Part shown: one piece after another, positions 1 to 13,015 of the stretch
Layout: each line of letters begins with the position of its first letter
Numbering within the stretch: position 1 is the stretch's first letter
Origin: Lachnospiraceae bacterium
GTDB lineage: Bacteria; Bacillota; Clostridia; Lachnospirales; Lachnospiraceae
Length of the DNA: 24,000 nt
Direction: 5' to 3'
NCBI GenBank assembly: GCA_024399135.1
Contig: JAKSHY010000002.1
Span: 116,238 to 140,237 of the forward strand
Position numbers and translations under genes: made by a program
Notes under the pieces: generated by a model
The model's database searches: none
What the model was told of the DNA's origin: nothing
The model's input: the letters and a program-made list of their open reading frames with translations, nothing else

Positions 1-19
1 TTAATTGGTTCTGTGCCAT
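1..19 (-). CDS. 5' end of an unidentified gene running off the left edge (only MAQNQL visible)
   Basis: ATG at 19..17 is preceded by AAGGAG (30..25) with a 5-nt spacer. TATAAT-like boxes lie at about 54..43 on the minus strand. The visible part is too short to identify. Confidence 0.35.
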
Positions 20-104
20 TTTTTCTCCTTAATGTAATAAATATTATAATTATATCTCTTAACCATAAAATAAACAATTAGAATTATATTTGCGAAAAGA
101 TACA

Positions 105-135
105 ATCAAAATAGGACCTCCTGTATAGAAGGTCC
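105..135 (-). terminator. Putative intrinsic terminator downstream of the DUF1524 ORF
   Basis: GGACCT (114-119) pairs with AGGTCC (130-135), giving a 6-bp stem and 10-nt loop. On the minus strand it is followed by TATTTTGATTG. Confidence 0.45.
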
Positions 136-157
136 CTAATTCTTTGATGCTCTTTAA

Positions 158-1231
158 TTAGTTTGCCAAAACAGTTTCTCGCGTTTCATCAAACACCTTA
201 ATAAACAAATCCCCTCTTTGACTCTTCAATTCTTCGATATTTGTAATATCAGAATACTTACCAAAATCTTTTTCTTCGATTTCTTCATATTTGGTGATTT
301 GTGATTTTAACCAAGCATCTGTTATTTCATTTAAGGCTTTACTCTTTTTAGCAATATTGTCTGTTTTAGGCAGCAATGCCAGATTCGTTAAACTATCCTT
401 CATAATAGAGTTTGCCATATTGTTTCCACCAAACTTTTCTTGTGGAATTATGTGGTCAACTTCAATCTTATCTGCCGAACTATTATAAGGCTCAATATTC
501 TTTAATGAATAGTAATAATACAAAATAGGTGTCATCGTTTTCTGTGTTACTGGCTGACCATTATAAGAACCAGATAGAGCACCTTCTATAAATGTCTTCC
601 ACTCTTGCTTTGCAACTGGTAAAATTCTGTTCTTCCAGTCTTTAATATCTGCAGACATTTTGGAGTCACCAGAGCCTCTCCACACCTTAGTAGAATATTC
701 GAAAACCAATCTATCAAAAAGAATTCGAGCATCTCGCTGAAACGCCTTGTATTGCGCGCCACTCACAGTTGGACAACCCTTATCTTTCCAATCCTCTAAC
801 AAAATAGCTATAAACTCCAAAGAAATCGCATTTCCAAGTAATTTAGCCATCGGCTTATCCCATGACTGAAAATACTTAAAAAATGTATCCGTCATAAGAA
901 TTTCGCATACTTTATTTATATCATTTACCAAGTCATCAATATCCGTGTCCCAATTAATATTTTTACCTTTTTCTAAACTTGAAACACTTTGCGCTGACAT
1001 TCCTTGTGCGCATACTGAACTGATAAGTTTGAAGCCTAAAGTTATTTTATCCATAGAAATTTCATCATGAATAACTGTTGAATCAAATATCAATCGTTTC
1101 TTATCAATTCTTGAAATCAATGTGGCAGCTAAATCCCATCTAACAACTCCATCCGGCTCTTCAACTCCCAAATTTTTATACATATCTTTTACAAGAAGCA
1201 AACGGTAACAACAAGTAACATATGGTAACAA
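158..1231 (-). CDS. DUF1524 / HNH-type nuclease domain protein (GmrSD C-terminal-half-like), apparently missing the N-terminal DUF262 half; possibly a 5'-truncated remnant
   Basis: The C-terminal motif VDHIIPQ...(N)...NLALLPKTDNIAKKSK is typical of the DUF1524 His-Me finger. No DGQQR/ParB-like DUF262 motif is present. The first 10 track codons are encoded by the GTAACA decamer repeats, so the first plausible ATG is 1183 (MYKNLG), and it has no convincing SD. Confidence 0.6.
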   Translation of the reverse strand: MLPYVTCCYRLLLVKDMYKNLGVEEPDGVVRWDLAATLISRIDKKRLIFDSTVIHDEISMDKITLGFKLISSVCAQGMSAQSVSSLEKGKNINWDTDIDDLVNDINKVCEILMTDTFFKYFQSWDKPMAKLLGNAISLEFIAILLEDWKDKGCPTVSGAQYKAFQRDARILFDRLVFEYSTKVWRGSGDSKMSADIKDWKNRILPVAKQEWKTFIEGALSGSYNGQPVTQKTMTPILYYYYSLKNIEPYNSSADKIEVDHIIPQEKFGGNNMANSIMKDSLTNLALLPKTDNIAKKSKALNEITDAWLKSQITKYEEIEEKDFGKYSDITNIEELKSQRGDLFIKVFDETRETVLAN

Positions 1232-1240
1232 TCAGTAACA
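1201..1240. repeat. Four tandem 10-bp units, each ending in GTAACA (aacgGTAACA acaaGTAACA tatgGTAACA atcaGTAACA)
   Basis: Read directly from the sequence. GTAACA occurs at 1205-1210, 1215-1220, 1225-1230 and 1235-1240, an exact 10-bp period. Confidence 0.85.
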
Positions 1241-1371
1241 AACCACAAATCGGCAAGCAATGTCTCTGTCCAGACAGACACACGAGCGCTTGCTGGTAGT
1301 TGCTCCCAAGCCCTTCAAACAATCCGGAGGATTGGACTACGCTGATTATGAATAAAACTTTTAATCCAACA

Positions 1372-3396
1372 CTAACTTTCCGCTAATTCATTTTCCATTT
1401 CTTTTATTTTGTCTAAATTAACTTCGAAGAGTTTATAATACTTCTTTTCTAAGTGCTTTTTTCTTTTCTCTGTCAATATATTAACTACTTCAAAAATATT
1501 CACTTTCTTATTCGTTATAAAAGAAGCAACACACCCAACAAATGGTGGAACTATCGCTAATCCACTAATTAAATATGTCTTGTAAGTAGCATTTAAAAAA
1601 ATATATGCAATAATAATTCCAATATAATATAAAACAACTAAGATCCTAAATCCATTTTTAAATACTTTTGTTCTCTTATCTATCATTCTATCTGCTTTTT
1701 CTTTTATCTTTAAGCAATCAGAATAACGTTTTCTCAACTCCGTCTTAGCTTTTTCTCTTAATTCTTCTTTTTCTAAAATAAGTTGATTTTTTTCGGAGCT
1801 ATTATTCAATATATTCTCGTCTTTTTTCTTTAAAATGGCTTTGTATTCCTCAATTGCCCTATCTCGTTCTTTTAATTCACTATCTAATCTTTCTTTCTCT
1901 GATTGATATATTGACAAATCTTTTTCGGACAAGAAATCTAACACATCGTCCAGAACTCTTATTTCTATTTCTTCTGGTTTCTTTGCTTCTTCTCTTAACG
2001 AAAGAATGACATCCGCCATCTGTTCAGCGTCAAGTTTTTTATTCCGATAATCATCATAAGCCTTTTCATATTTTTCTGAGACCGATTGTGATATCATACT
2101 TGACAGCACGATTTTAGCCTTTAGCAAGACGCTGAAATTTGAAGGAAAATCTTTTGCACCAAATCCTTTATTTAAATCAAACCATAATCTATTAGTAATA
2201 CCACTCATATTAATTGCTAACGGAATTTTTCTTACTGCCATATCATTAGAAATAAACAACATTTTGCCAACTTCAGTTAGTACAATATGCTGACAGGATT
2301 TCAAGTCATCTACATCATTTTCTTTTCTTAAAATATTTACATAATTAATATGTTTTATATATCTAAATTTATCATCCGAAAGCTCATATTTTGCAATACA
2401 TTCCTCGCTTTCAAGATTATATTTCTGATTAGCCTCTTCATAATAGTTATATCCATCAGCTTGAACTATTCCTTTTGCTTTAAGTAAGCTAAAGAAAGCA
2501 GCTTTCTTTTCAATAACATCTGCTGCAGTCTTACAACCGTTTACAATCGTGTTCATCGCATAATTTTCGACATCTACAATATCATTTCCAAGAACTATAT
2601 TTTCTGCTTTTGTAAAAAATTTATCGATCTCAATTTTAACATCTTCAAAATACCTCACTTTTATATTATGTGAGCCACTTTTACTATTCATTTCATATAT
2701 TAGGCTAAGCAAATCCTCCACATGTCTTTTAAATACCTCTCCATTATATCCGGCCAAGTGAAATAAAATCTCTATCTCAGCATATAATATAATAGGTTTA
2801 TTCCAAGCCCGTCTTTCTGAAACATTACTATTATGATTAATGCCCGCATACAAAACAGCGCCTTCTTTAATTGTATTAATCATTGCCATAATATCTTTAT
2901 CATCCTGTTTTTCTACAATATAAGCACTTATGACATCTGAAAAATGGTTTCCATTTGATTCATCCAATAAAAAAGCACAAAATTCCTTAACTAATTGTTC
3001 TTTTTCTTTTGCAGATAATTCTCCTCTTTTTTCTTCTGCAAATTTTTCAAGTTCACGTATTACATTATCGCTTTTCGAAATAGCATTTTGACATTGTTCA
3101 TCAATTGAAGAATTTGGAAGTTTACTTATATCAACTGTATATTGATTATTCTCTCTCGATACATAATCTATTTTCTTTAAAGAAGTCTGAATAACATAAT
3201 CTGGAATACAAAATCCATACTGTGCTCGAATTTTTTCAGAAATATCCGTAATTCCAAAACAATATAAACCTGTACCTATAACTATTCCCTCAACAAAACG
3301 TGAAACAATAAAATAAATATCACTTTTTCCATCATTATATAATTGTCTAAATGTAACCAAAGACGCTAAATTTTTAACTTCTGTACTTAATCTCAT
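1372..3396 (-). CDS. Hypothetical 674-aa protein: globular N-terminal two-thirds with no motif I recognise, a long charged coiled-coil, then two C-terminal TM helices
   Basis: ATG at 3396 (MRLSTEV) lies 13 nt after the hsdR TAG (3412..3410), with GAAGGAA between them. The track start at 3429 overlaps hsdR and has no SD. The heptad-like K/E-rich region is SEKERLDSELKERDRAIEEYKAILKKKDE...EKEELREKAKTELRKRY. The hydrophobic segments are FRILVVLYYIGIIIAYIFL and LISGLAIVPPFVGCVASFI (about nt 1500-1650). Confidence 0.8.
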   Translation of the reverse strand: MRLSTEVKNLASLVTFRQLYNDGKSDIYFIVSRFVEGIVIGTGLYCFGITDISEKIRAQYGFCIPDYVIQTSLKKIDYVSRENNQYTVDISKLPNSSIDEQCQNAISKSDNVIRELEKFAEEKRGELSAKEKEQLVKEFCAFLLDESNGNHFSDVISAYIVEKQDDKDIMAMINTIKEGAVLYAGINHNSNVSERRAWNKPIILYAEIEILFHLAGYNGEVFKRHVEDLLSLIYEMNSKSGSHNIKVRYFEDVKIEIDKFFTKAENIVLGNDIVDVENYAMNTIVNGCKTAADVIEKKAAFFSLLKAKGIVQADGYNYYEEANQKYNLESEECIAKYELSDDKFRYIKHINYVNILRKENDVDDLKSCQHIVLTEVGKMLFISNDMAVRKIPLAINMSGITNRLWFDLNKGFGAKDFPSNFSVLLKAKIVLSSMISQSVSEKYEKAYDDYRNKKLDAEQMADVILSLREEAKKPEEIEIRVLDDVLDFLSEKDLSIYQSEKERLDSELKERDRAIEEYKAILKKKDENILNNSSEKNQLILEKEELREKAKTELRKRYSDCLKIKEKADRMIDKRTKVFKNGFRILVVLYYIGIIIAYIFLNATYKTYLISGLAIVPPFVGCVASFITNKKVNIFEVVNILTEKRKKHLEKKYYKLFEVNLDKIKEMENELAES

Positions 3397-3409
3397 TTTC
3401 TCATTCCTT

Positions 3410-6400
3410 CTACGCTGCCGCATTGGCATTTATTGTCTCTATAACCTTCCTAATTCCCATCCACACATTCAGATCTGTAAATATTTCAACCACACTTCCC
3501 TGGTCTGTAAAAGGTGATTCCTGAAGAACAGAAAGATCCTTCATCATTCCGTTGTGAACGATATATTCCACTATCTGATTCACAAAATATATCTGCCTGC
3601 TATCAAGGCTTGTGCTTGTCAGATATTCTGAGAAAGCTTCCTTGGCAGCATTCATATCAAGACCAACGATCTCACGAACTAATTCGCCTAATGGCTTCTG
3701 TCCATACTCATGCTCATAATCCTGCTTAGTACCAACCTCATTCCAAAGGATATCCTCAAGTGTTGATATATCAGAACTTGTAAGAGGCTGATTAGTCTTA
3801 AGCTTTGCAATTACAACATTATCTTGATGTTGCCTAATATAGAATTCAGCTTTAGCTTTGTAATTCTTCAATTCATCATTTTCAAGCTCAGATTCCTTCC
3901 ATTCCACAGACAAAAGATCATCTTCAAAATTCGTATCATAACGAAGCTTATGCTTCGGAATATACTTCATAAGATCACGGAGTTTTTCTCTGATTTCTTC
4001 AAATTCATTGATACCGGCATTATCAAGATAATCTGTATTTAGAATCTTCTGAATCAAATCGCTCTGCATCTGAATCTCAGGAATATTTGCCACACTGGCA
4101 ATACCTTCTACCTTCTTATAAAGGTCGCTTCTTGCTCGTGTATATTTCTTGCCTACAAGATAAGCAAGTTCTATGCCATACATAAGTGCATCAAATCTTA
4201 CTGCACTCGCCTCATCATCATCCGGCAAAATGAGTGGTGCCAGTTCTTCCCTGACAATCAATGTGTCCTCATAGGTAAGACACTGATAATTAGTTTCCGC
4301 AGAATATAAATCCACATATTTCAAATGCTGACGAACTGCAAAATTGTCTCTTGGTAACTCCTGCACCTTTTCAGACATTTGTTTTACCAAAAGATTTCTA
4401 TATGCAATGAGTCTTTCAATCTGATAATCAATATCCTGCAATTTATAAGAAATCTCAAATTTCAAGTTAAAGATAGCTCCCTGTAGAGCAATCATATTGG
4501 CAGTTGCTTTACCTTTATTCATTCGGAAGAATTCAAAGTTTCCGCAGAAATCAAATATATAGAACTTCTGCTTATCTTCCCCATCAATAAGTCCAGGACA
4601 AAGTCTGGTACCACGTCCAATCATCTGCCAGAATTTTGCCTTACTCATAACCTTCTTGAAGAATACAAGGTTTATTACTTCCGGTACATCAATACCGGTA
4701 TCCAGCATATCAACAGAGATAGCAATCTGTGGCATCTTCTTTGGATCAGAGAATTCATCTATAGCACTCTGGGCATAGGTCATATAGTTATCAATCACCT
4801 TTGCATAATCCGGAAGATGTGGATACTCCTTATGGAATACTTCAAGTATCTTTTCAGCATGATCATGATTCTTTGCAAATATAATGGTTTTACCAATCTT
4901 CTGACCATAATCTATCTTGATTCCATTGGTCATAAGTGTATGGAGAACCTGACGAATTGTATCCTCATTGAAAATCCATGTATTTAATGCAGATGAACCT
5001 ATAGACTCCGGAAGCTCACCATTTTCATCCTCAAAGGTAGCCTCATACTCTTCTTTATCTTTCTCTGATAAATCATCATAAACAATACCCTGTTCAATGA
5101 ATTTCAGTTTTGATTCTACCGAAACATAGTCAACAAGATATCCATCCTTTACTGCCTGAGCTAAATCGTAACCATAGGTAGGCACACCATTTTCCAGTTC
5201 AAATACTTCATAAGTATTTTTATCAATTTCATCCTTTGGAGTTGCTGTTAATCCTACCAATGGCGCATCGAAATAGGTAAAAATATCGCGATATTTATTA
5301 TAAATTGATCTATGGGCCTCATCACAGATTACCAGGTCAAAATGGCCACAGGTAAACAGTTTCCCATCGTTATCATTAACCGTATCAATGCAGTTAATCA
5401 TGGTCTGATATGTAGAAAATACGCAGTGAGCGTTATAATTATCTTTTTCCTCACACAGGTTCGTGCATGACAAATTAGGAAGCATATTTACAAAGCTTCT
5501 CTTTGCCTGTGTAACCAGCGAATTTCTATCTGCAAGGAAAAGAATATTCTTTACCCAGCCCGCTTTCAGTAAGCAATCGCAAAGAGCAATAACAGTTCTT
5601 GTCTTACCTGAACCCGTTGCCATTACAAGAAGTGCTTTTCTACGATTCTTCTCGTCAAAGCTATGACATACTGCCTTAATTGCTGATTCTTGATAATAAC
5701 GGCCGGCAATGTTTTTATCTACACTTACATGCTTTAGGCTTGTACGCATAGTAAGCAAATTGAACCACTTCTCCAAATCTCTCTTGGAATAGATTACAGA
5801 GCACTTTCTCTCAGGATATTGGTCATCGATGATATGCGTATCAAATCCATTGGTAAGAAATACAACTGGTCTCCTCTTATATTTCTGTTCCAATAAATCG
5901 GCATATAATTTTGCCTGCTGTCTACCCTTGGATACATCTACGCAGGTCCGTTTTGCTTCAATTACTGCCAATGGCTTATGCATGTCATCGTAAAGTACAT
6001 AGTCTGCATAACCCACTTCTGATTTGTTAGGCATACCCGGAAGCTCTACTTCATTAATCCAGTCCTTTCCTTCGGTCCAGCCTGCATCCATAAGCATAGA
6101 ATCAATATAAAGCTTTCTAGTTTTATACTCAGATAAATCCAATGGCTTTGGAACATAAGTCTGCTGCTGTTCCTGTCTACGGGCAGATAATTCTTCCTTG
6201 AGAGAAGCATTTTCAGCAATCAGCTTCTGTAAGTCAAGTTCCTGCTGTGCATTCTTCTCCTGCTCCTTAGCAAGTTCTTCTTTGGTCTGCGCTGCAGTTT
6301 CTTTAGATTTTTTCGCTTTTTCTATACGGTCACTAATGATCTTCTTATCAAAGACACGTTCTTCATACTGGTCAGAGTAGCAATAAGCAATAAAATCCAA

Positions 6401-6754
6401 ATAAATAAACAGATTCTCCAGGCATAGCATGGCCTCATCTCTGCCAAGCTTCTTGTTACTGTGAGCCACATTATTGCCGCAACGACGAATATAATCCATA
6501 CGCTTCCAAAGATCAGCACCTATAATCTGTCTGTATTCTTCTGCATTCATAAGGCTCTGCAAATTATCCTGGTAAGGCATCTCCAGTTCCTTATCCACGG
6601 AATACATCCATTTCAGAGCGAACTCCATCGCCATGCGGCTATTAATAATACTAGCCTCCGGATCCATAAGAATAATCTTCTCAGCTGATATTGCCACATC
6701 CTCAAAGGAAGCGAATTTCGATTCATTTTTCAAATAATCAAAGTTGGTTATCAT
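3410..6754 (-). CDS. hsdR: Type I restriction endonuclease R subunit (N-terminal DUF4145-like domain, coiled-coil linker, PD-(D/E)xK nuclease, SF2 helicase, EcoEI_R_C-like tail)
   Basis: Motifs seen: YADYVLYD...VIEAKR (nuclease), MATGSGKTRT (motif I), VICDEAHRS (DEAH), GLTATP (III), QMIGRGTR (VI). ATG at 6754 (MITNFDYL) has GGAGG 9 nt upstream. The track start at 6763 is TTG. Confidence 0.95.
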   Translation of the reverse strand: MITNFDYLKNESKFASFEDVAISAEKIILMDPEASIINSRMAMEFALKWMYSVDKELEMPYQDNLQSLMNAEEYRQIIGADLWKRMDYIRRCGNNVAHSNKKLGRDEAMLCLENLFIYLDFIAYCYSDQYEERVFDKKIISDRIEKAKKSKETAAQTKEELAKEQEKNAQQELDLQKLIAENASLKEELSARRQEQQQTYVPKPLDLSEYKTRKLYIDSMLMDAGWTEGKDWINEVELPGMPNKSEVGYADYVLYDDMHKPLAVIEAKRTCVDVSKGRQQAKLYADLLEQKYKRRPVVFLTNGFDTHIIDDQYPERKCSVIYSKRDLEKWFNLLTMRTSLKHVSVDKNIAGRYYQESAIKAVCHSFDEKNRRKALLVMATGSGKTRTVIALCDCLLKAGWVKNILFLADRNSLVTQAKRSFVNMLPNLSCTNLCEEKDNYNAHCVFSTYQTMINCIDTVNDNDGKLFTCGHFDLVICDEAHRSIYNKYRDIFTYFDAPLVGLTATPKDEIDKNTYEVFELENGVPTYGYDLAQAVKDGYLVDYVSVESKLKFIEQGIVYDDLSEKDKEEYEATFEDENGELPESIGSSALNTWIFNEDTIRQVLHTLMTNGIKIDYGQKIGKTIIFAKNHDHAEKILEVFHKEYPHLPDYAKVIDNYMTYAQSAIDEFSDPKKMPQIAISVDMLDTGIDVPEVINLVFFKKVMSKAKFWQMIGRGTRLCPGLIDGEDKQKFYIFDFCGNFEFFRMNKGKATANMIALQGAIFNLKFEISYKLQDIDYQIERLIAYRNLLVKQMSEKVQELPRDNFAVRQHLKYVDLYSAETNYQCLTYEDTLIVREELAPLILPDDDEASAVRFDALMYGIELAYLVGKKYTRARSDLYKKVEGIASVANIPEIQMQSDLIQKILNTDYLDNAGINEFEEIREKLRDLMKYIPKHKLRYDTNFEDDLLSVEWKESELENDELKNYKAKAEFYIRQHQDNVVIAKLKTNQPLTSSDISTLEDILWNEVGTKQDYEHEYGQKPLGELVREIVGLDMNAAKEAFSEYLTSTSLDSRQIYFVNQIVEYIVHNGMMKDLSVLQESPFTDQGSVVEIFTDLNVWMGIRKVIETINANAAA

Positions 6755-6780
6755 AAGGCACAACCTCCCAACACTCTAAA

Positions 6781-7305
6781 CTATTTAAACAATTCAGGTT
6801 CTTCATTGTACAAATCAATTAACCATGGTTGTGGGACATATACAAGTATCATTTCATTATCCCAACCAAGTGAAACAGCCTGATCAGGTTGATGTATAAA
6901 GAGTCCATTTAATAAATACACAGTGTCACCTGAATTTCTGTCCAATTTAATTGCTTTCTCTTTGCTACGCAAAAGTTTACATACTATTTTCATTTGCTCT
7001 GGACTTAACTTTTGTAGTTTCTTTCTTTGATTCTCCTTGAATTTCTTATTTTTTCTTTTCGAACATATATAAGAAAATATTGATGAAATAGCTAAAGTAA
7101 AAATCAAAGACAGACTAAGTAAGAAAATAATACCAATTATTTGCTTCCACATATCAGGCAAGTTATTCAGTGACATTTTTTCAAGAATTTCTATTGGAAG
7201 AAACAATAGCATGCCTGACAATATTGCTACAGCAATGAGTGCCGGTGTTATTTTCTTAAAATTATCAAATGTTTTCTCTGCTATACTATCAACCGATATA
7301 TTCAT
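6781..7305 (-). CDS. Two-TM membrane protein with a C-terminal soluble domain; resembles the superinfection-exclusion SieB family (PF14163) from memory, unverified
   Basis: TM segments: ITPALIAVAILSGMLLFLPI and IIGIIFLLSLSLIFTLAISSIF. These are followed by a basic stretch KRKNKKFKENQRKK, then LSPEQMKIVCKLL...SGDTVYLLNGLFI...PQPWLIDL. Its ATG directly abuts the upstream stop (TAAATG at 7308..7303). Confidence 0.6.
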   Translation of the reverse strand: MNISVDSIAEKTFDNFKKITPALIAVAILSGMLLFLPIEILEKMSLNNLPDMWKQIIGIIFLLSLSLIFTLAISSIFSYICSKRKNKKFKENQRKKLQKLSPEQMKIVCKLLRSKEKAIKLDRNSGDTVYLLNGLFIHQPDQAVSLGWDNEMILVYVPQPWLIDLYNEEPELFK

Positions 7306-7644
7306 TTATCTTCGACCTTTCTTCATACCTTGTGATATTTGTTGACGAATTTCAGGCATCTTTATAGCTTCAGTCATAAGCGTATTCATCATATCTGCCC
7401 CAAGTTTATTTTCCATTTCCTTCTGCATCAGTTCAAGCTGATGTTTATGCTCGATTTCTTGTTTTTCAAGATCATATTTATGTTTCTCTCGTTCAGTTTC
7501 CAAATCTAATTCATGTTGCTTAATTAACTTTTCAATTTCTCCTTTTGTCTCTTTACGAGATATCATTACAGAAGATATTGCTGCAATTAAAGCACCAAGA
7601 ACTGAAACTATATATGGCATTATTTCTTTGATAATCTCTAACAT
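7306..7644 (-). CDS. Small single-TM protein with a highly charged coiled-coil tail (112 aa), unknown function
   Basis: N-terminal TM segment PYIVSVLGALIAAISSVMI, followed by KETKGEIEKLIKQHELDLETEREKHKYDLEKQEIEHKHQLELMQKEMENK. AGGAG lies 7 nt upstream and overlaps the hsdS stop codon. Confidence 0.75.
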   Translation of the reverse strand: MLEIIKEIMPYIVSVLGALIAAISSVMISRKETKGEIEKLIKQHELDLETEREKHKYDLEKQEIEHKHQLELMQKEMENKLGADMMNTLMTEAIKMPEIRQQISQGMKKGRR

Positions 7645-7653
7645 AACTTTCTC

Positions 7654-8790
7654 CTAACCAAAATATTTTTGCATTAATGAATCAAATAATAACTGTGTCT
7701 CGTCCAATGCCTTCTGCACTACAACTTTTGATTTGTCGACTTGTTTGACAAAATCTGCGAACTGCACTTGTTCGTTCACTGGAACTAGCGGAACTGGTAA
7801 TTCCTTCAACTTATTTAAAGGCAATTGTTTTAGTGTTGACTGATTCGTTGAACCAAACATAAAACGCTGTGCCTCTTCTGTAGTCAAATAATGACTAATA
7901 AATAATCTATCCGCCTTATTTTTATCAATTCTTATTACTGCTAAATTTCTAGTAACATTCATTCCTTTGCATCTTTCATCGCTAAGCATAACCTGCCCTG
8001 GTTGTCCAATAACCTGAACTAGAATTTCATCACCAATTAACCTTGTTTTTTTATACTTACACTCTATATCTGATGCAACCCTGTAAACATTATCTAAGTT
8101 TAAGCTTCCGTTCTTGAAATCAGAAGGTCTTACCATGGGAATACCATCTTCAACATTATCACCTGGTACAACTATTCCGTATGATAATCCAGCACCTTCT
8201 TGAATCAATTCAATAAGTTGCTTTTTCTCATATTCCTGACTTCCAAACAGCTCGACAAATCGGGCTTTGATGAGGTCATCCACAGTCTCTAGTTCTTTTT
8301 TTCGTAAATCAATAATAGATTTTACTTTTTCTATCGAATCAACAATATTGCTTTGTTCTTCCAACACTGGGAATCTAATCAGCATTGATAAAAAATCCGC
8401 ATCCGGTATACTTCTTCGTCTAGCAGTTGTTCCTCGTAATTTTGACTTATAATATTCAATACTTCTCGGAGATCTTAATGCATATTCTAAATATTTAGGA
8501 ATAACCTTGTCTGTATCCACATCCCATATTTTATATGCTGGACTGACAATTCCTTCATCTGCCAATTCCTGAACCGCAAGAACCCCCTCATCGATAGGAA
8601 AGCTCTCCACCAATTGATGTCTAGAAACAACCTGATATGATGACTGATCAACAGATGCTATTTGTTTTTTGAATCTGTCATCTTGGAACATCAATCCTTC
8701 ATGCATAGTCATTGAAAGAACAGAATATTTTTCATTCCCACACTTTTTTACTTTTGCCTTTTTTATAAGTTTTCCAACTTCTATTTCCAT
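7654..8790 (-). CDS. hsdS: Type I restriction-modification specificity subunit with two target-recognition domains
   Basis: The layout is typical of HsdS. The central conserved helix is LRKKELETVDDLIKARFVELFG and the C-terminal conserved helix is VVQKALDETQLLFDSLMQKYFG. The gene lies between hsdM and hsdR. Confidence 0.9.
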   Translation of the reverse strand: MEIEVGKLIKKAKVKKCGNEKYSVLSMTMHEGLMFQDDRFKKQIASVDQSSYQVVSRHQLVESFPIDEGVLAVQELADEGIVSPAYKIWDVDTDKVIPKYLEYALRSPRSIEYYKSKLRGTTARRRSIPDADFLSMLIRFPVLEEQSNIVDSIEKVKSIIDLRKKELETVDDLIKARFVELFGSQEYEKKQLIELIQEGAGLSYGIVVPGDNVEDGIPMVRPSDFKNGSLNLDNVYRVASDIECKYKKTRLIGDEILVQVIGQPGQVMLSDERCKGMNVTRNLAVIRIDKNKADRLFISHYLTTEEAQRFMFGSTNQSTLKQLPLNKLKELPVPLVPVNEQVQFADFVKQVDKSKVVVQKALDETQLLFDSLMQKYFG

Positions 8791-8834
8791 CTACATCATC
8801 CCTACAAATCCGAATTTAGGACTTGCCCTTTCCT

Positions 8835-10055
8835 TTAAAAGTATTCCGCCAACTTTACTTGTCCTGCCTCATAACTAATCACCAAATTTATACAAGCAAA
8901 AGTCTTAAATGACTTCATTTCAAATAGATCCTCACTTTTCTTCACAAGAAGATTTCTATTATTTTTATCATCAGATAACTTTATCAAATATTTTTTTATG
9001 TTTGTTTTATTTAGACCTTTTATTGGTTTAGGCAAATATCCGTCTATGTACGCATTTACCTGACTGGACGAAAAATCACTTTTCTCGTAATTACATAATG
9101 CATAAAGGACATGATTCAAACCATTTGACTCAGATATATTATCATTGTAGAGTCCACGAATAACCGAATATTCTGCTGCCAATCTTGTTTTCACCCAACC
9201 TTCTTGAGCTTTTATAAATATTTCATCGTTCATTAAAATCTTATCGCTTTCATTGTCGTAATAAGATATAGCAAGGCAATAGCACATTTCATTAACACTC
9301 TGTGGAATACCAGCAGTGCATTTAAGCACATAATTAGATAGATCATCAATCATAGGAACCGTAAAACCACATTCTCTAAACTTTTTAGACACAAAGCTAT
9401 TACATTCTGTATCATTAAAACCTCTAACAGATATTGTTTGAATTCGGCTTGCTATTGTCTGATAATTGGGCATTTTCTCAAAATACTGCATTATACTATT
9501 TGTGGCTCCAATAGCCAAAAAACGAACATTATTTTTTATCATTAGCGGATCATCTGCCATCGTTATAATGCAACTCAAATCCTCTAACATTTTTTCATCG
9601 TTGATAATTGTTTCAAAATTATCTAGCACCACAAGTTGATTTTTATTATCTTGAAGAAACAGCTTAAAAAAATCATTACTTACTTCATATGTTCTACTAG
9701 CCTCAAGATTACCAGCTGCAATGCCTGCATTTATCCCTGCTTCTTTGGTTTCGATTCTTTCCACTAACACTTCTGAATATAATGCAGAAAAATATTGATA
9801 GAACCCACCTTTCATTTTTACATCAGACAAATTGACAAATTTATATTTTCCTGCAACACTTTTCATAATATGAGTTGTTAGCCATGTCTTACCGCATCCA
9901 CTTTCTCCAGCAACAAATACATATTTATATCTATTTATCGCTCTTAAGAGTTCTTTTTCATAATATTCTCTTACTATGTAGCTTTTCTCATTAAATTCTT
10001 CCCTATTTCGAAAAATTGTATTTATTTTTTCTTCTGTTATACTCATTATCAACAA
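8835..10055 (-). CDS. P-loop NTPase (AAA+/ORC-Cdc6-like or AAA_22-like ATP-binding protein) inserted between hsdM and hsdS
   Basis: Walker A is VAGESGCGKTW and Walker B-like is QLVVLDNFE. A sensor-1-like FLAIGATN is followed by IASRI. The C-terminal roughly 150 aa could be a winged-helix or lid domain. The track start is TTG; an ATG at 10046 (MSITEEK) is the more likely start. Confidence 0.75.
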   Translation of the reverse strand: MLIMSITEEKINTIFRNREEFNEKSYIVREYYEKELLRAINRYKYVFVAGESGCGKTWLTTHIMKSVAGKYKFVNLSDVKMKGGFYQYFSALYSEVLVERIETKEAGINAGIAAGNLEASRTYEVSNDFFKLFLQDNKNQLVVLDNFETIINDEKMLEDLSCIITMADDPLMIKNNVRFLAIGATNSIMQYFEKMPNYQTIASRIQTISVRGFNDTECNSFVSKKFRECGFTVPMIDDLSNYVLKCTAGIPQSVNEMCYCLAISYYDNESDKILMNDEIFIKAQEGWVKTRLAAEYSVIRGLYNDNISESNGLNHVLYALCNYEKSDFSSSQVNAYIDGYLPKPIKGLNKTNIKKYLIKLSDDKNNRNLLVKKSEDLFEMKSFKTFACINLVISYEAGQVKLAEYF

Positions 10056-10069
10056 CCTGTCTTCTTTGA

Positions 10070-11575
10070 TTAATGTATTTTTATCAATTTCTCAAGTTCT
10101 TCCATTTCCTTGCCAATCTCCATCTCAATCTCACGGATGTTAGCCATAATTTCCGATGTAGGTGGGTACTCTACTGCCACATATTCCACCTCTTTATATT
10201 TATTGATGCTGAGATCATAATCATTGTCTTCTATTTCCTTCTTAGGCACCATGAACGACTTATCTGTACGCTTTCTGTCCTGTTCACCATCAAGATTCTT
10301 AAATCTCTGAATGATGTCAGGAATATCGTTGTCTGCCACTACTGAACGCTTATCATCTAAGCTAAATCCGTCTGCAGTCATATCATAGAACCATACATTA
10401 TCTGTTCCGCCATGCTCTGTCTTTGTAAATACAAGAATAGCGGTCGATACCCCGGCATATGGTTTAAATACACCAGAAGGCATTGAAATAACTGCCTCTA
10501 ATCTCTGATTCTCAACGATTTCTTTTCTAATTGCTTTGTGTGCAGTAGAAGAACCAAACAACACGCCATCAGGTACGATACATGCACATCTTCCACCTAT
10601 TCTTAACATACGCACAAACAATGCCAGAAACAGTAATTCTGTCTTCTTGGTACTGCAAACCTTAAGAAGATCTGCCGATACAATATCTGCATCCAAGCTT
10701 CCTTTGAATGGTGGATTTGCTAATATCAATGAATATTTATCCTTATCAGGATTCTGATCAGATAAGCTATCTCTATATTCAATAAAAGGACTTTCCACTC
10801 TATGATTCATCATATTCATAGCACCGATACGAAGCATGGTTCTATCCATATCAAAACCATGAAACATATGATTCATGAAATGGTCCTTCTTCTGTTTATC
10901 GTAGAAGATTTCTTCCTTCTTGTTATTCCACAGATATTCCCCAGCTTCCACAAGGAAACCAGCTGTACCACAAGATGGATCACAAATAATATCATCTGCT
11001 TTAGGATCCATCAGTTCTACCATCATCTTAATAATATGACGAGGCGTTCTAAACTGACCATTCACGCCTGCTGTAGCAAGCTTTGAAAGTAAATACTCAT
11101 ACACATCACCTCTGGCATCAGAATCATTTAACTTTGCCATCTGCGTGTAAAGTTCATCCATAGCATCTACAACCTTAGAAAGCATAAGCGGTGTAGGAAG
11201 CTTGAAGATAGCATCGTCCATATACTTTGAAAATGCACTGTCCTTACTGGCATGAAGATTCTTTATAAATGGGAATACCATTTCCTGCATAACAGAATAC
11301 ATTCTATCAGCGGGATAATCTCTAAACACTGACCACTTAAACTGTGTACCGTCGATAGTTCTTTCACCAATCTTTACTTCCTTGGCAAATACGCTCTCAT
11401 ATGGAAGACCAAGCATCGCGCTTTCCTTAGCGTGTGTATTATCTGATACATCTAGGTCATGGATAAACATAAGATATGTCATCTGCTCAATCACATCCAG
11501 TGGATTGGTAAGTCCACCAGTCCAGAAAATTTCCCATAAGCTATCAATTCTATTTTTCAATTCACCTGTTATCAT
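10070..11575 (-). CDS. hsdM: Type I restriction-modification N6-adenine DNA methyltransferase subunit
   Basis: HsdM_N-like N-terminus (ELKNRIDSLWEIFWTGGL...MTYLMFI). AdoMet motif ICDPSCGTAGFL. Catalytic motif LANPPFKGS. Confidence 0.95.
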   Translation of the reverse strand: MITGELKNRIDSLWEIFWTGGLTNPLDVIEQMTYLMFIHDLDVSDNTHAKESAMLGLPYESVFAKEVKIGERTIDGTQFKWSVFRDYPADRMYSVMQEMVFPFIKNLHASKDSAFSKYMDDAIFKLPTPLMLSKVVDAMDELYTQMAKLNDSDARGDVYEYLLSKLATAGVNGQFRTPRHIIKMMVELMDPKADDIICDPSCGTAGFLVEAGEYLWNNKKEEIFYDKQKKDHFMNHMFHGFDMDRTMLRIGAMNMMNHRVESPFIEYRDSLSDQNPDKDKYSLILANPPFKGSLDADIVSADLLKVCSTKKTELLFLALFVRMLRIGGRCACIVPDGVLFGSSTAHKAIRKEIVENQRLEAVISMPSGVFKPYAGVSTAILVFTKTEHGGTDNVWFYDMTADGFSLDDKRSVVADNDIPDIIQRFKNLDGEQDRKRTDKSFMVPKKEIEDNDYDLSINKYKEVEYVAVEYPPTSEIMANIREIEMEIGKEMEELEKLIKIH

Positions 11576-11578
11576 GAA

Positions 11579-12640
11579 TTAATCCTCCTTATCCCAATTC
11601 CATGTGTATTTAGTATATCTTCCGCCACCGATTTTTGTAATCTTTCCTTCTTTTACAAGTTCCGTCAGGGTTCTTTGTACTGTAGTCTGGCTAATCCCCG
11701 GTGTATTCTCCATAATCTCTGTCTTGGTTATGGTTCCAAGATGATTCTTTATCAATTCCTCTATCCTATCCGGCTTTGGAACCTTCTTTTCTTCTACTAC
11801 CTTTGCTCTGTCAAAGAATTCTCTATAGGCAGCTGTGATGATTCCAAGAACATATTTTACAAATGGTTCATAATCATTCTCATCTTCTATCCAGCCAGTA
11901 GAGCTTTCCTTCAACGCTTCGTAGTAGCTATCCTTTGTCTTTTCAATCAGCTTCTCCAAACTGATATATTTTCCAACGATATAATCATTCTGATATAGCA
12001 ATAATAATGTCAGTAATCTACTCATTCTGCCATTACCATCATTGAAAGGATGAATACATAAAAAATCGATAATGAACATTGGCATAATCAAGAGCGAATC
12101 CGCCTCACTTCTATTGATAGCCTCGTTGTAAGCAGCGCACAGATTAGTAATAGCTTCTGGTGTTTCCCATGCAGGTAATGGTCGGAATCTCACGAACTTA
12201 TTGCCTTGATTATCCTCTTCCTCAATTACATTATCTGCCGCCTTGAATTTTCCACCCTTTGCTGCATTTTCAAATCGATATAAATCTCTATGCAACTGCA
12301 AGATAAATGTATCTCTAACCGGAATATGCGGAAAGCTTTCATGAATCGTATTAAGCACATCTCTATATCCGGCAATCTCTCGCTCATTTCTGGTTCTTGG
12401 CATTGTCTTATCCAAAACAATCTTCTTTAATCGATCGTCTGATGTATAAATACCTTCAATTTTATTAGAACTCTCGGTACTCTGAATCTTGGCTACTTCA
12501 ACAAGACTCTCAAGAACATCCGCATGCTTTTCTGCAATTAAACGCTGCTCTCCTCTGTATTCATGAATCGTTGTAAGATAATTCACAATGTCCGGAGTTA
12601 ATAACTTTTTCCATTTTTCTGTATAATCAAAACTTCTCAT
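11579..12640 (-). CDS. Fic/DOC family protein (probable AMPylase) with an N-terminal inhibitory-helix motif and a C-terminal winged-HTH
   Basis: Fic motif HPFNDGNGRMSRLL. The [ST]xxxE[GN] inhibitory motif appears as SNKIEG. The C-terminal ISQTTVQRTLTELVKEGKITKIGGGRYTKY is HTH-like. GAGG lies 8 nt upstream of the ATG. The stop is 3 nt from the hsdM ATG, with AAGGAGGA inside the fic 3' end. Confidence 0.9.
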   Translation of the reverse strand: MRSFDYTEKWKKLLTPDIVNYLTTIHEYRGEQRLIAEKHADVLESLVEVAKIQSTESSNKIEGIYTSDDRLKKIVLDKTMPRTRNEREIAGYRDVLNTIHESFPHIPVRDTFILQLHRDLYRFENAAKGGKFKAADNVIEEEDNQGNKFVRFRPLPAWETPEAITNLCAAYNEAINRSEADSLLIMPMFIIDFLCIHPFNDGNGRMSRLLTLLLLYQNDYIVGKYISLEKLIEKTKDSYYEALKESSTGWIEDENDYEPFVKYVLGIITAAYREFFDRAKVVEEKKVPKPDRIEELIKNHLGTITKTEIMENTPGISQTTVQRTLTELVKEGKITKIGGGRYTKYTWNWDKED

Positions 12641-12660
12641 TTCAATTGCCTCATATAATT

Positions 12661-12765
12661 CTCAATTTCGTCATTTTATACATTTTGACTTAATTAGATT
12701 ATATACTTCAACTTCGTCAAATGTAAACATTATCTTCGTCATTTTTAACAATATGACGAAATTAA
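12661..12765 (-). promoter_or_regulatory. Putative promoter and operator region of the fic-hsd operon
   Basis: On the minus strand: -35 TTTACA (12727..12722), an 18-nt spacer, -10 TATAAT (12703..12698). There are four TTCGTCA boxes: 12667-12673, 12713-12719 and 12735-12741 on the plus strand, and 12754-12760 inverted. The last two form the palindrome TTCGTCAT-N10-ATGACGAA. One box overlaps a TTGACG -35-like hexamer. Confidence 0.5.
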
Positions 12766-12783
12766 ACAATTTTTTGATACAAT

Positions 12784-12831
12784 TAAAAACCGGAAACTAC
12801 CTATTTTCTTATTTTAGGCAATTTCCGGTTT
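12784..12831 (-). terminator. Intrinsic terminator insulating the fic-hsd operon from upstream transcription (partly bidirectional)
   Basis: AAACCGGAAA (12787-12796) pairs with TTTCCGGTTT (12822-12831), and CCTA (12800-12803) pairs with TAGG (12815-12818) across a 3x3 internal loop. A T5 run follows on the minus strand and a T3 run on the plus strand. Confidence 0.6.
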
Positions 12832-12832
12832 C

Positions 12833-12878
12833 GTTACTATAATATTTTCTTTATCGAGAGCAATCCTGTTACTATAAT
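12833..12878 (+). repeat. Direct duplication of the 11-mer GTTACTATAAT (12833-12843 and 12868-12878)
   Basis: Read directly from the sequence. Each copy contains a perfect TATAAT, but the -35 matches are weak (TAGGCA, TTTATC). Confidence 0.7.
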
Positions 12879-12891
12879 TACTTAAAATTCC

Positions 12892-12918
12892 CATCCTGAA
12901 AACTACGCCTTCAGGATG
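12892..12918 (-). terminator. 9-bp stem hairpin, possibly a terminator for the small minus-strand ORFs upstream
   Basis: CATCCTGAA (12892-12900) pairs with TTCAGGATG (12910-12918) around a 9-nt loop. On the minus strand it is followed by GGAATTTTAAG, a weak T tract. Confidence 0.35.
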
Positions 12919-13015
12919 TCACGGTACTCGTCAAATGCCCATTCATGCTAGCATGATGAGCGCTTTCCTCGTTACTCGCGCAAAATAGGTGTACAACAGG
13001 TGTATGAATCACATT

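What the first reader, a model, noticed from the sequence alone, without database searches (positions are those of the whole stretch)
6781..7644. Two-gene membrane module (TM-coiled-coil peptide plus SieB-like protein) in the PrrC position between hsdS and hsdR
- orf112 (one TM plus an extremely charged E/K/H-rich helix) and orf174 (two TM plus a soluble C-terminal domain) are fused at the DNA level by TAAATG. The SD of orf112 overlaps the hsdS stop codon, which implies stoichiometric co-translation with the specificity subunit.
- From memory, orf174 resembles the SieB superinfection-exclusion family. P22 SieB aborts lytic growth of superinfecting phages.
- A SieB-like effector with a dedicated small partner, embedded in an RM operon exactly where the anticodon nuclease PrrC sits in E. 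coli, would be a membrane-acting analogue of the PrrC guard logic.
Basis: partly seen in the sequence, partly recalled or inferred. Interest (0 to 1): 0.75.

Follow-up and report, generated by a model that had tools for sequence, protein, structure and literature searches.

The report
SieB-family membrane gene inside restriction operon
A restriction-modification operon of a gut or rumen Lachnospiraceae bacterium carries, between its specificity and nuclease genes, a membrane protein related to the phage-exclusion protein SieB and a separate small membrane-anchored helical protein. Both recur in restriction operons elsewhere, independently of each other, so they are candidate extra anti-phage layers, not one two-gene machine.

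Summary
On the minus strand, orf112 (7306-7644) and orf174 (6781-7305) abut as TAA|ATG between hsdS and hsdR, and the orf112 ribosome-binding site overlaps the hsdS stop codon.

- **orf174 is a SieB-family protein.** It scores 74.6 bits (E 8e-21) against Pfam PF14163, whose cut-off is 26. It has two transmembrane helices and a small cytoplasmic domain. Its best structural match among viral proteins is a P22 protein that is probably SieB itself.
- **orf174 belongs to the operon backbone.** In 26 related loci from Lachnospiraceae and other Clostridia it is a near-constant part of one type I RM lineage: Fic, hsdM, hsdS, SieB-like, hsdR. Its divergence tracks that of HsdR (r = 0.70).
- **The "dedicated partner" idea fails.** orf112 accompanies orf174 in only 5 of 18 comparable loci. 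Its family also follows hsdS, or other RM genes, in six arrangements that lack any SieB-like gene.
- **A second embedding exists.** A distant SieB-family clade sits inside an SNF2-helicase/type III methylase system.

My best reading is that orf174 is an RM-embedded phage-exclusion (abortive-infection) effector co-expressed with the RM enzyme. A PrrC-like guard mechanism is possible but untested. The general phenomenon of defence genes embedded in RM operons is already known. This pairing was not found in the literature I searched. Interest is moderate.

The parts
12698..12727 (-). Best sigma-70-like promoter match (11 of 12), upstream of the Fic gene. It is the probable start of one long minus-strand transcription unit.
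   Evidence: No strong terminator-like site lies between here and 136-113(-).
11579..12640 (-). Fic/SoFic-like protein (353 aa) with a C-terminal winged-helix domain. It is a conserved first gene of this operon lineage.
   Evidence: Pfam Fic E 1e-13. PADLOC SoFic E 3.8e-42. Present at 55-86% identity upstream of hsdM in L001-5, L018-20, L022, L024 and L032.
10070..11575 (-). hsdM, the type I methyltransferase subunit (501 aa).
   Evidence: N6_Mtase E 1.5e-61 and HsdM_N. PADLOC MTase_I E 1.7e-181.
8835..10055 (-). P-loop ATPase (406 aa, AAA_16/STAND-like) inserted between hsdM and hsdS. It is cargo specific to this window.
   Evidence: Only sub-threshold Pfam hits: nSTAND3, AAA_16 and ATPase_2. 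phrog_6841 E 1e-10. No homolog in any of the related loci.
7654..8790 (-). hsdS, the specificity subunit (378 aa).
   Evidence: Methylase_S E 2e-17. PADLOC Specificity_I E 1.2e-42.
7645..7656 (-). hsdS stop codon TAG embedded in the ribosome-binding site TAGGAGAAAG, 9 nt before the orf112 ATG.
   Evidence: Read from the sequence. The same junction is conserved in L006-12, L001, L003, L014, L015 and L021.
7306..7644 (-). orf112: an N-terminal transmembrane anchor followed by one long, highly charged helix. It belongs to a conserved but unnamed small-protein family that follows RM genes. It is facultative in this operon lineage.
   Evidence: Hydropathy. AF2 gives a helix over residues 2-95 at pLDDT 84. 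There are 49 homolog clusters with KQHExDxExERE, EHKHQLE and MPExRxQ motifs. No Pfam, PADLOC or PDB match. phrog_2542 (function unknown) E 4e-8.
6781..7305 (-). orf174: a SieB-family (PF14163) inner-membrane protein. It has a conserved N-terminal segment, two transmembrane helices, a basic linker and a small cytoplasmic alpha/beta domain that may be winged-helix-like.
   Evidence: PF14163 at 74.6 bits against a cut-off of 26. hhalign to lambda SieB. AF2 pLDDT 82. Top BFVD hit is P22 Q38660. PDB gives only weak MarR-type hits. Context is conserved in 26 loci.
3410..6763 (-). hsdR (EcoAI/type IB-like, with an N-terminal DUF4145 domain). The true start is probably the ATG at 6754, preceded by GGGAGG, which leaves 26 nt after the orf174 stop.
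   Evidence: ResIII, DUF4145 and EcoEI_R_C. PADLOC REase_I E 1.4e-160. NCBIfam EcoAI-type, below its cut-off. Homologs align from residue 4-5. Sequence.

Best explanation
orf174 encodes a SieB-family inner-membrane protein. By the positive-inside rule both termini are cytoplasmic: a two-helix hairpin, a basic linker and a small C-terminal domain. It has become a stable accessory gene of one lineage of type I (EcoAI-like) restriction-modification operons in Lachnospiraceae and related Clostridia. The backbone of that lineage is Fic(SoFic-like), hsdM, hsdS, SieB-like, hsdR.

orf174 is transcribed and translated together with the RM subunits. I infer that it acts as a second, membrane-based line of defence. 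When a phage gets past restriction, the protein halts the infection in the way P22 and lambda SieB do, by shutting down macromolecular synthesis partway through the lytic cycle, which sacrifices or arrests the infected cell.

orf112 is a separate element. It is a small membrane-anchored, long-helix protein whose gene is translationally coupled to the 3' end of hsdS. It recurs after RM genes in many different systems and is present in only a minority of the SieB-bearing operons. It is therefore not an obligate partner of orf174.

Shown here: family membership, architecture, conserved embedding, co-divergence with the RM genes, and separability of the two genes. Inferred: the anti-phage function and the abortive mechanism.
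For: **Family and architecture**
- PF14163 at E 8.2e-21, 74.6 bits, cut-off 26.
- The profile aligns in register with lambda SieB across the N-terminus, TM1, the LP..W loop, TM2, the basic linker and the L(S/T)xxQ helix: 80% probability, E 1.5e-5.
- The AF2 model has pLDDT 82.
- The best hit in the viral structure library is P22 Q38660, described as 'initial portion of N operon', 195 aa, probability 1.0, E 0.025. The annotated sieB lies in exactly that part of the P22 genome.

**Conserved embedding**
- 18 of 26 related loci have hsdS directly upstream.
- 16 have hsdR downstream, either directly or after an inserted defence gene.

**Long co-residence**
- Pairwise identities of the SieB-like protein correlate with HsdR (r = 0.70, Mantel p about 5e-4), with Fic (r = 0.70) and with HsdM (r = 0.47).

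**Defence neighbourhood**
- The variable slots of the same operons hold GmrSD/HNH, AbiH, Mrr, NERD and shufflon integrase genes.
- The Fic gene matches the PADLOC SoFic model.

**Independent second case**
- A distant SieB-family gene sits 10 nt after an SNF2 helicase, and before DUF4391, in a type III methylase system.
- Another lies next to a C5-methylase and Vsr.

**Known SieB phenotype**: PMC10461980.

**Separability of orf112**.

**Single transcription unit**: plausible.
Against: - No experiment bears on function.
- Similarity to the characterised SieB proteins is only at profile level. There is no BLAST-level hit in 50,697 phage records or in IMG/VR. hhalign to P22 SieB itself is weak: 12.7% probability, E 0.0023.
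- The molecular mechanism of SieB is itself unknown, so 'works like SieB' is a phenotype-level statement.
- No PADLOC model matches either protein, so there is no prior experimental support for this clade.
- One natural locus (L034) carries an in-frame deletion of the gene with hsdR intact. The gene is therefore dispensable for maintaining RM.
- The constant position next to hsdS and hsdR could instead reflect a role in the RM enzyme's own biology.
Confidence: 0.55

Rival explanations
1. PrrC-like guard, using orf174 alone. The SieB-like protein is held inactive by physical contact with the assembled HsdM/S/R complex. It is unleashed at the membrane when a phage anti-restriction protein (Ocr-, ArdA- or Stp-like) disables or dissociates the enzyme.
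For: - It occupies the same slot as prrC, between hsdS and hsdR (bioRxiv 10.1101/2024.01.29.577857).
- Expression is tightly coupled to the RM genes.
- It has co-diverged with HsdR.
- No intact copy was found away from RM genes in this clade.
- Its cytoplasmic domain could serve as a protein- or DNA-contact module.
Against: - It has no sequence or fold relation to PrrC.
- In L025, L026 and L031 the gene sits upstream of hsdM, separated from it by other genes, and not next to hsdR.
- In several loci 1-2 kb of other defence genes separate it from hsdR.
- Other SieB-family clades live in recombinase or integrase islands without RM genes, so the family does not need an RM partner to be tolerated.
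- No interaction data exist.
Confidence: 0.15
2. Obligate two-gene membrane module. orf112 and orf174 form one complex and act only together.
For: - The TAA|ATG abutment is seen in the window and kept in L001 and L003.
- Both proteins are membrane-anchored with cytoplasmic parts.
Against: - orf112 is absent from 13 of 18 loci in which orf174 follows hsdS.
- The orf112 family is followed by an integrase, Mrr, a 213-aa unknown protein or hsdR itself in other RM operons that have no SieB-like gene.
- It also occurs next to a serine recombinase and next to a Dam-like methylase.
Confidence: 0.07
3. Non-lethal accessory of the RM enzyme. The SieB-like protein, orf112 or both tether or regulate the type I complex at the cytoplasmic membrane where phage DNA enters, or they control restriction alleviation. 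In this model they do not kill the cell.
For: - Both have membrane anchors with cytoplasmic domains.
- orf112 is translationally coupled to hsdS across unrelated type I families.
- orf174 has co-diverged with HsdR.
- The PDB gives weak winged-helix (MarR-type) fold hints for the orf174 C-terminal domain.
- From my own knowledge, not checked here: older reports (Holubova and colleagues) say type I enzymes associate with the membrane.
Against: - The characterised family members, P22 and lambda SieB, are exclusion factors with no RM partner (PMC10461980).
- Most type I systems have no such gene.
- L034 keeps hsdR after deleting the gene.
- The fold hits are all above E 0.1.
Confidence: 0.13
4. 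Passive hitch-hiker. The gene is a remnant of a mobile element lodged in an RM hotspot, with no current function linked to defence.
For: - The hsdM-hsdS and SieB-hsdR junctions are clearly insertion hotspots.
- Other SieB-family members sit in mobile islands.
Against: - The gene is intact, at 174 aa, with 35 invariant positions across 45 sequences.
- It holds a constant position and has co-diverged with the backbone.
- No phage or mobile-element genes lie next to it in the window.
Confidence: 0.05

Closest known systems
SieB superinfection-exclusion proteins of phages P22 and lambda (Pfam PF14163)
   Same: - Same Pfam family, scored well above the cut-off.
- Same size class: 174 aa against 184-192 aa.
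- Same layout: a conserved N-terminal segment, two transmembrane helices with an LP..W loop, a basic linker and a cytoplasmic C-terminal domain.
- The N-terminal ~24 residues are the most conserved part of the orf174 clade. In P22 these are the residues missing from Esc, the self-protecting short form (annotation of BK000583).
   Different: - Only profile-level similarity, with no BLAST hit to any phage record.
- The gene is chromosomal and sits inside a type I RM operon. It is not in a prophage PL operon next to the N/24 gene.
- No evidence for an internal Esc-type start or a sas antisense RNA. Neither was examined.
- The host is a Gram-positive-type Clostridia lineage.
- Function is untested.
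PrrC anticodon nuclease embedded in the EcoprrI type I RM locus
   Same: Both are single accessory genes located between hsdS and hsdR and co-expressed with the RM subunits. PrrC is the textbook case of an abortive-infection effector genetically embedded in type I RM (bioRxiv 10.1101/2024.01.29.577857).
   Different: - PrrC is a soluble ABC-ATPase fused to an anticodon nuclease. orf174 is a two-TM membrane protein with no ATPase or nuclease domain.
- Latency by binding to the RM enzyme, and activation by Stp, are shown for PrrC. Neither is known here.
[quoted passage not shown] 2024; HEC and PDC families in PADLOC)
   Same: It is the same phenomenon: uncharacterised genes nested inside multi-gene defence operons. 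The same operon lineage also hosts GmrSD-like, AbiH, Mrr and NERD inserts.
   Different: - Neither orf174 nor orf112 matches any HEC or PDC model.
- SieB/PF14163 does not appear in that paper or in its 11 supplementary files.
- orf174 is a near-constant, co-diverging operon member, unlike the variable cargo genes.

Membership tests
SieB (Pfam PF14163) | Scores above the family's curated gathering threshold | tested here: met
   74.6 bits against a cut-off of 26, E 8.2e-21, residues 24-133 on profile positions 2-111 of 147. Lambda SieB scores 103.5 bits in the same test.
SieB (Pfam PF14163) | Architecture: a protein of about 170-195 aa with two transmembrane helices, a basic linker and a cytoplasmic C-terminal domain | tested here: met
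   Hydropathy. AF2 pLDDT 82. In-register hhalign to lambda SieB and, weakly, to P22 SieB. Distant family representatives share the layout and the Y.LQPW motif.
SieB (Pfam PF14163) | Fold similarity to the P22 SieB model | tested here: inconclusive
   The top BFVD hit is P22 Q38660: E 0.025, probability 1.0, TM 0.41, 108 aligned columns. That Q38660 is SieB is inferred from its length and its 'N operon' description. No hit reaches E 0.001.
SieB (Pfam PF14163) | Encoded by a prophage and expressed in the lysogen | tested here: not met
   The gene lies in a chromosomal type I RM operon with no phage genes nearby. No relative was found in IMG/VR or in GenBank phage records.
SieB (Pfam PF14163) | Aborts lytic growth of superinfecting phages | not testable with these tools
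   Needs phage challenge experiments. The phenotype of P22 SieB is taken from PMC10461980.
SieB (Pfam PF14163) | Internal in-frame start giving a self-protecting short form (Esc), as in P22 | not tested
   P22 Esc starts at codon 25. orf174 has M44 and M105 but no obvious ribosome-binding site was examined. Ribosome profiling or N-terminal proteomics would be needed.
PrrC-type RM guard | Gene located between hsdS and hsdR of a type I operon | tested here: met
   The position is conserved in at least 16 related loci.
PrrC-type RM guard | ABC-ATPase N-domain plus anticodon-nuclease C-domain | tested here: not met
   No such Pfam or PADLOC hit for orf174 or orf112.
PrrC-type RM guard | Kept latent by the RM complex and activated when a phage anti-restriction factor hits it | not testable with these tools
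   Requires toxicity, interaction and trigger experiments.
Obligate two-gene module (orf112 + orf174) | The two genes co-occur as neighbours wherever either is found | tested here: not met
   5 of 18 comparable orf174 loci have orf112. Six orf112 arrangements lack a SieB-like gene.
Type I restriction-modification operon (EcoAI/IB-like) | hsdM, hsdS and hsdR all present and intact in one orientation | tested here: met
PADLOC phage-defence candidates (HEC/PDC) | Significant match to a PADLOC-DB v2.0.0 model | tested here: not met
   orf174 gives only PDC-M68A at E 0.016. orf112 gives nothing.

The most novel reading that the evidence does not exclude
SieB-family membrane proteins are a recurrent 'fail-safe' partner of methylation-based defence. 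In this reading orf174 senses the state of the type I complex, or the DNA it is translocating at the membrane, through its cytoplasmic winged-helix-like domain. It collapses the infected cell when restriction is neutralised. That would make it a membrane-acting analogue of PrrC. It would also give the first mechanistic handle on how SieB works, a question open since the 1970s. orf112 would be a second, independent hsdS-coupled membrane adaptor.
Probability: 0.15. Interest if true: 0.75.

Novelty: new variant of a known kind. Interest (0 to 1): 0.45.

Why it matters
- **A way into the SieB mechanism.** SieB is one of the oldest known phage-exclusion genes, yet its mechanism is unknown and its family is annotated almost only by homology. 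A clade that is a fixed, co-evolving component of a type I RM operon offers a defined genetic partner set (HsdM, HsdS, HsdR, Fic) against which to test what triggers it and what it binds. A second clade sits inside an SNF2/type III methylase system.
- **Two additions to the catalogue of RM-embedded genes.** Neither the SieB-like clade nor the hsdS-coupled orf112 family is in PADLOC. Both occur in abundant gut, oral and rumen Clostridia, where phage defence is poorly studied.
- **Practical relevance.** Such operons are barriers to genetic manipulation of, and phage therapy against, these organisms.

Tried and rejected
- tblastn of orf174 against GenBank phages (E up to 1) and PLSDB plasmids gave no match. 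An IMG/VR pattern scan found no relative. A recent phage origin is therefore rejected.
- PADLOC gave no significant model for orf174 or orf112. NCBIfam gave nothing significant for either.
- PHROGs gave only weak SieB phrog hits for orf174 (E about 0.007) and an unknown-function phrog for orf112.
- An orf112 profile searched against PDB sequences found nothing meaningful; the best hit was E 0.053 to a 62-aa protein.
- Literature searches for SieB together with type I restriction, the hsd genes, defence islands, or PF14163 found no description of this arrangement. Several hits were false ('Siebert' in reference lists).
- L031 and L033 looked at first like distant (38-41%) homologs. They are frameshifted copies of the L025 type, either pseudogenes or error-rich assemblies, and were not used as distant queries.
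- Rfam found no RNA family anywhere in the window.
- I considered that the DUF4145 N-domain of HsdR might mark SieB-bearing operons. I rejected this because HsdR proteins of SieB-less loci (L006-9, L037) align from residue 5 as well.
Full report
**1. What is there**

All genes in 1-13,000 lie on the minus strand. In the order they are read:

| Gene | Coordinates | Length | Notes |
|---|---|---|---|
| Fic/SoFic-like | 11579-12640 | 353 aa | |
| hsdM | 10070-11575 | 501 aa | |
| P-loop ATPase | 8835-10055 | 406 aa | |
| hsdS | 7654-8790 | 378 aa | |
| orf112 | 7306-7644 | 112 aa | |
| orf174 | 6781-7305 | 174 aa | |
| hsdR | 3410-6763 | 1117 aa | probable true start is the ATG at 6754; DUF4145 N-domain, EcoEI_R_C; EcoAI-like |
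| unknown protein | 1372-3429 | 685 aa | |
| HNH/GmrSD_C-like | 158-1231 | 357 aa | |

- The best promoter-like site (11 of 12) is at 12727-12698. The best terminator-like hairpin is at 136-113. Nothing strong lies between them, so one long transcript is plausible. This is an inference.
- An identical copy of orf112 is annotated in a Lachnospiraceae MAG.

**2. Checking the observation**

- The minus strand reads TAA|ATG at 7308-7303, so orf112 and orf174 abut with no spacer.
- hsdS ends TTT GGT TAG, and that TAG is part of TAGGAGAAAG, 9 nt before the orf112 ATG.
- Hydropathy gives one transmembrane helix in orf112 and two in orf174.
- AF2 models agree. orf112 is essentially one helix over residues 2-95 (pLDDT 84). 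orf174 has helices 5-35 and 51-98, then a compact alpha/beta domain (pLDDT 82).
- The tail of orf112 is 48% charged residues.
- Both ORFs have many conserved homologs.

**3. Is orf174 SieB-like?**

Yes, at family level.

- Pfam PF14163 scores E 8.2e-21 and 74.6 bits, against a curated cut-off of 26. Lambda SieB, read from J02459, scores 103.5 bits in the same test.
- A profile of the orf174 clade aligns in register with lambda SieB over the N-terminus, both transmembrane helices, the basic linker and the L(S/T)xxQ helix. hhalign gives 80% probability and E 1.5e-5.
- Against P22 SieB the register is the same but the score is weak: 12.7% probability, E 0.0023.
- In the viral structure library the top hit is a 195-aa P22 protein described as 'initial portion of N operon' (E 0.025, probability 1.0). 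The annotated sieB lies there, so this is probably SieB itself.
- There is no BLAST-level similarity to any phage, plasmid or IMG/VR sequence.
- The cytoplasmic domain gives only weak MarR/winged-helix matches in the PDB, all at E 0.1 or higher. I treat that fold only as a hint.
- A full HMMER scan of 1.84 billion cluster representatives finds 824 family members at E 0.001 or better. They share the same layout and a Y.LQPW motif near the C-terminus.

**4. Context of the orf174 clade**

Scans of one genome per species and of JGI metagenomes returned 26 loci with 57-73% identical proteins. They come from Oribacterium, Agathobacter, Butyrivibrio, Christensenellaceae, and rumen and gut MAGs. tblastn with all window proteins shows a common backbone: Fic, hsdM, [variable], hsdS, [orf112 or nothing], SieB-like, [variable], hsdR.

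- hsdS lies directly upstream in 18 loci.
- hsdR lies downstream in 16 loci, either immediately or after an insert of 1.2-2.4 kb.
- The variable slots hold GmrSD-N+HNH, AbiH, Mrr, NERD, a HAD-like gene, or an integrase with a second hsdS. The operon is therefore an insertion hotspot, while Fic and the SieB-like gene are near-constant.
- Four loci (L025, L026, L031, L033) have a different arrangement next to guaA, with AbiH or a caspase-like gene nearby. In L025, L026 and L031 hsdM lies 2.5-3.2 kb downstream. L033 shows no hsd gene within 6 kb. L031 and L033 are frameshifted.
- One locus (L034) has an in-frame deletion that leaves a 38-aa remnant in front of an intact hsdR.
- Pairwise identities of the SieB-like protein correlate with those of HsdR (r = 0.70, Mantel p about 5e-4), Fic (r = 0.70) and HsdM (r = 0.47). 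This indicates long co-residence, not recent insertion.
- The ATPase, the 685-aa protein and the HNH protein of the window are absent from all related loci.

**5. Is orf112 a dedicated partner?**

No.

- It accompanies orf174 in the window and in L001, L003, L014, L015 and L021 only. That is 5 of 18 comparable loci.
- Its family is a real, well-conserved small-protein family with the motifs KQHExDxExERE, EHKHQLE and MPExRxQ.
- The family occurs without any SieB-like gene in these arrangements:
  - hsdS, orf110, integrase, a 145-aa protein, hsdS', hsdR (L006-9);
  - a different type I family, where it is followed by Mrr and GmrSD (L010-13);
  - after an HNH gene and directly before hsdR (L036-38);
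  - before a 213-aa unknown protein and DUF4238 (L039-41);
  - after a serine recombinase (L042);
  - after a Dam-like methylase cluster in an IMG/VR contig (L054).
- The junction in which the hsdS stop lies inside TAGGAG is kept even across unrelated hsdS families. orf112 is thus tied to the 3' end of hsdS and not to orf174.
- It has no Pfam, PADLOC or PDB relative.

**6. The wider SieB family**

I sampled six distant clades.

- Bacillales members lie in recombinase, integrase or plasmid-like islands.
- One lies next to an HNH gene.
- One lies next to a C5-methylase with Vsr.
- One (P0396) sits 10 nt after a 1078-aa SNF2/DrmD-like helicase and before DUF4391, in an operon that ends with a type III methyltransferase.

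Embedding of SieB-family genes in methylation-based defence has therefore happened at least twice.

**7. Mechanism**

- *Shown:* family membership, membrane architecture, conserved embedding, co-divergence with the RM genes, and separability from orf112.
- *Established knowledge:* P22 SieB stops macromolecular synthesis midway through the lytic cycle of superinfecting P22-like phages (PMC10461980). P22 protects itself with Esc, which is SieB lacking its first 24 residues. PrrC is an abortive effector embedded between hsdS and hsdR (bioRxiv 10.1101/2024.01.29.577857).
- *Inferred:* orf174 is a co-expressed second-line exclusion (abortive-infection) effector acting at the membrane. The N-terminal segment, which is the most conserved part of the clade, is likely needed for activity, by analogy with the SieB/Esc pair.

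Whether orf174 is coupled to the state of the RM enzyme (guard model), merely shares its operon, or instead tethers or regulates the enzyme cannot be decided from sequence.

**8. Novelty**

- Embedded defence genes in type I RM are a known phenomenon, and PF14163 annotation of these proteins is automatic in public databases.
- I found no paper describing SieB-family genes as conserved type I RM operon members.
- Neither protein is in PADLOC, and SieB/PF14163 appears nowhere in the text or supplements of the guilt-by-embedding study.
- I rate it a new variant of a known kind, of moderate interest (0.45). The guard reading, if proven, would deserve about 0.75.

Noticed in passing
window 8835-10055 (-): A 406-aa P-loop ATPase sits between hsdM and hsdS. 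Its Pfam hits (AAA_16, nSTAND3, ATPase_2) are all below threshold, and it matches phrog_6841 at E 1e-10. It is absent from all 26 related loci, so it is cargo specific to this window in the hsdM-hsdS hotspot.
   Followed up: partly
window 1372-3429 (-) and 158-1231 (-): A 685-aa protein with no Pfam or PADLOC match has two C-terminal transmembrane helices, and its start overlaps the hsdR stop by 20 nt. It is followed by a 357-aa HNH/GmrSD_C-like protein with a partial PADLOC HEC-05 hit (E 6.5e-6). Neither occurs in the related loci. This may be a further defence pair appended to the operon.
   Followed up: partly
window 12667-12696 and 12735-12764: Two copies of a 30-nt direct repeat (80% identical) contain the palindrome TTCGTCA...TGACGAA. 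They flank the best promoter-like site upstream of the Fic gene. This could be an operator, and the Fic protein carries a C-terminal winged-helix domain.
   Followed up: no
L048 5001-5510 and L049 2196-2705: A distant SieB-family gene (169 aa) lies 10 nt downstream of a 1078-aa SNF2/DrmD-like helicase. It is followed by DUF4391, three unknown genes and a type III methyltransferase. This is an independent embedding of the family in another methylation-based system.
   Followed up: partly
L034 909-1025: An in-frame deletion fuses SieB-like residues 1-26 to the last ~12 residues. The resulting 38-aa remnant lies directly upstream of an intact hsdR.
   Followed up: partly
L003 10557-12558, L021 2184-4186, L015 3673-4938, L029 1364-3222, L019 6472-8490, L004 7746-8780, L002 4078-4824: Related operons carry different inserts in two slots (hsdM-hsdS and SieB-hsdR). 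The inserts include GmrSD_N+HNH with a 222-256-aa unknown, AbiH with a 238-aa transmembrane protein, an integrase with a HAD-like gene, Mrr and NERD. This operon lineage is a defence-gene hotspot.
   Followed up: partly
L025 479-4171 and L026 1538-3566: In a sub-clade the SieB-like gene lies next to guaA. AbiH, a 134-aa transmembrane protein or a 713-aa caspase-domain protein is nearby, and hsdM is 2.5-3.2 kb downstream. The gene is not between hsdS and hsdR here.
   Followed up: partly
L054 1985-5393 (IMG/VR contig): An orf112-family gene (136 aa, 39% identical) follows a Dam-like methyltransferase, a 268-aa unknown protein and a 349-aa unknown protein on a 9-kb viral-classified contig. The small helical protein therefore also travels with non-type-I methylase clusters.
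   Followed up: no
window 6754-6763 (-): The mechanical ORF call starts hsdR at the TTG at 6763. Homologs align from residue 4-5, and a GGGAGG lies 8-9 nt before the ATG at 6754, so 6754 is the likelier start.
   Followed up: partly
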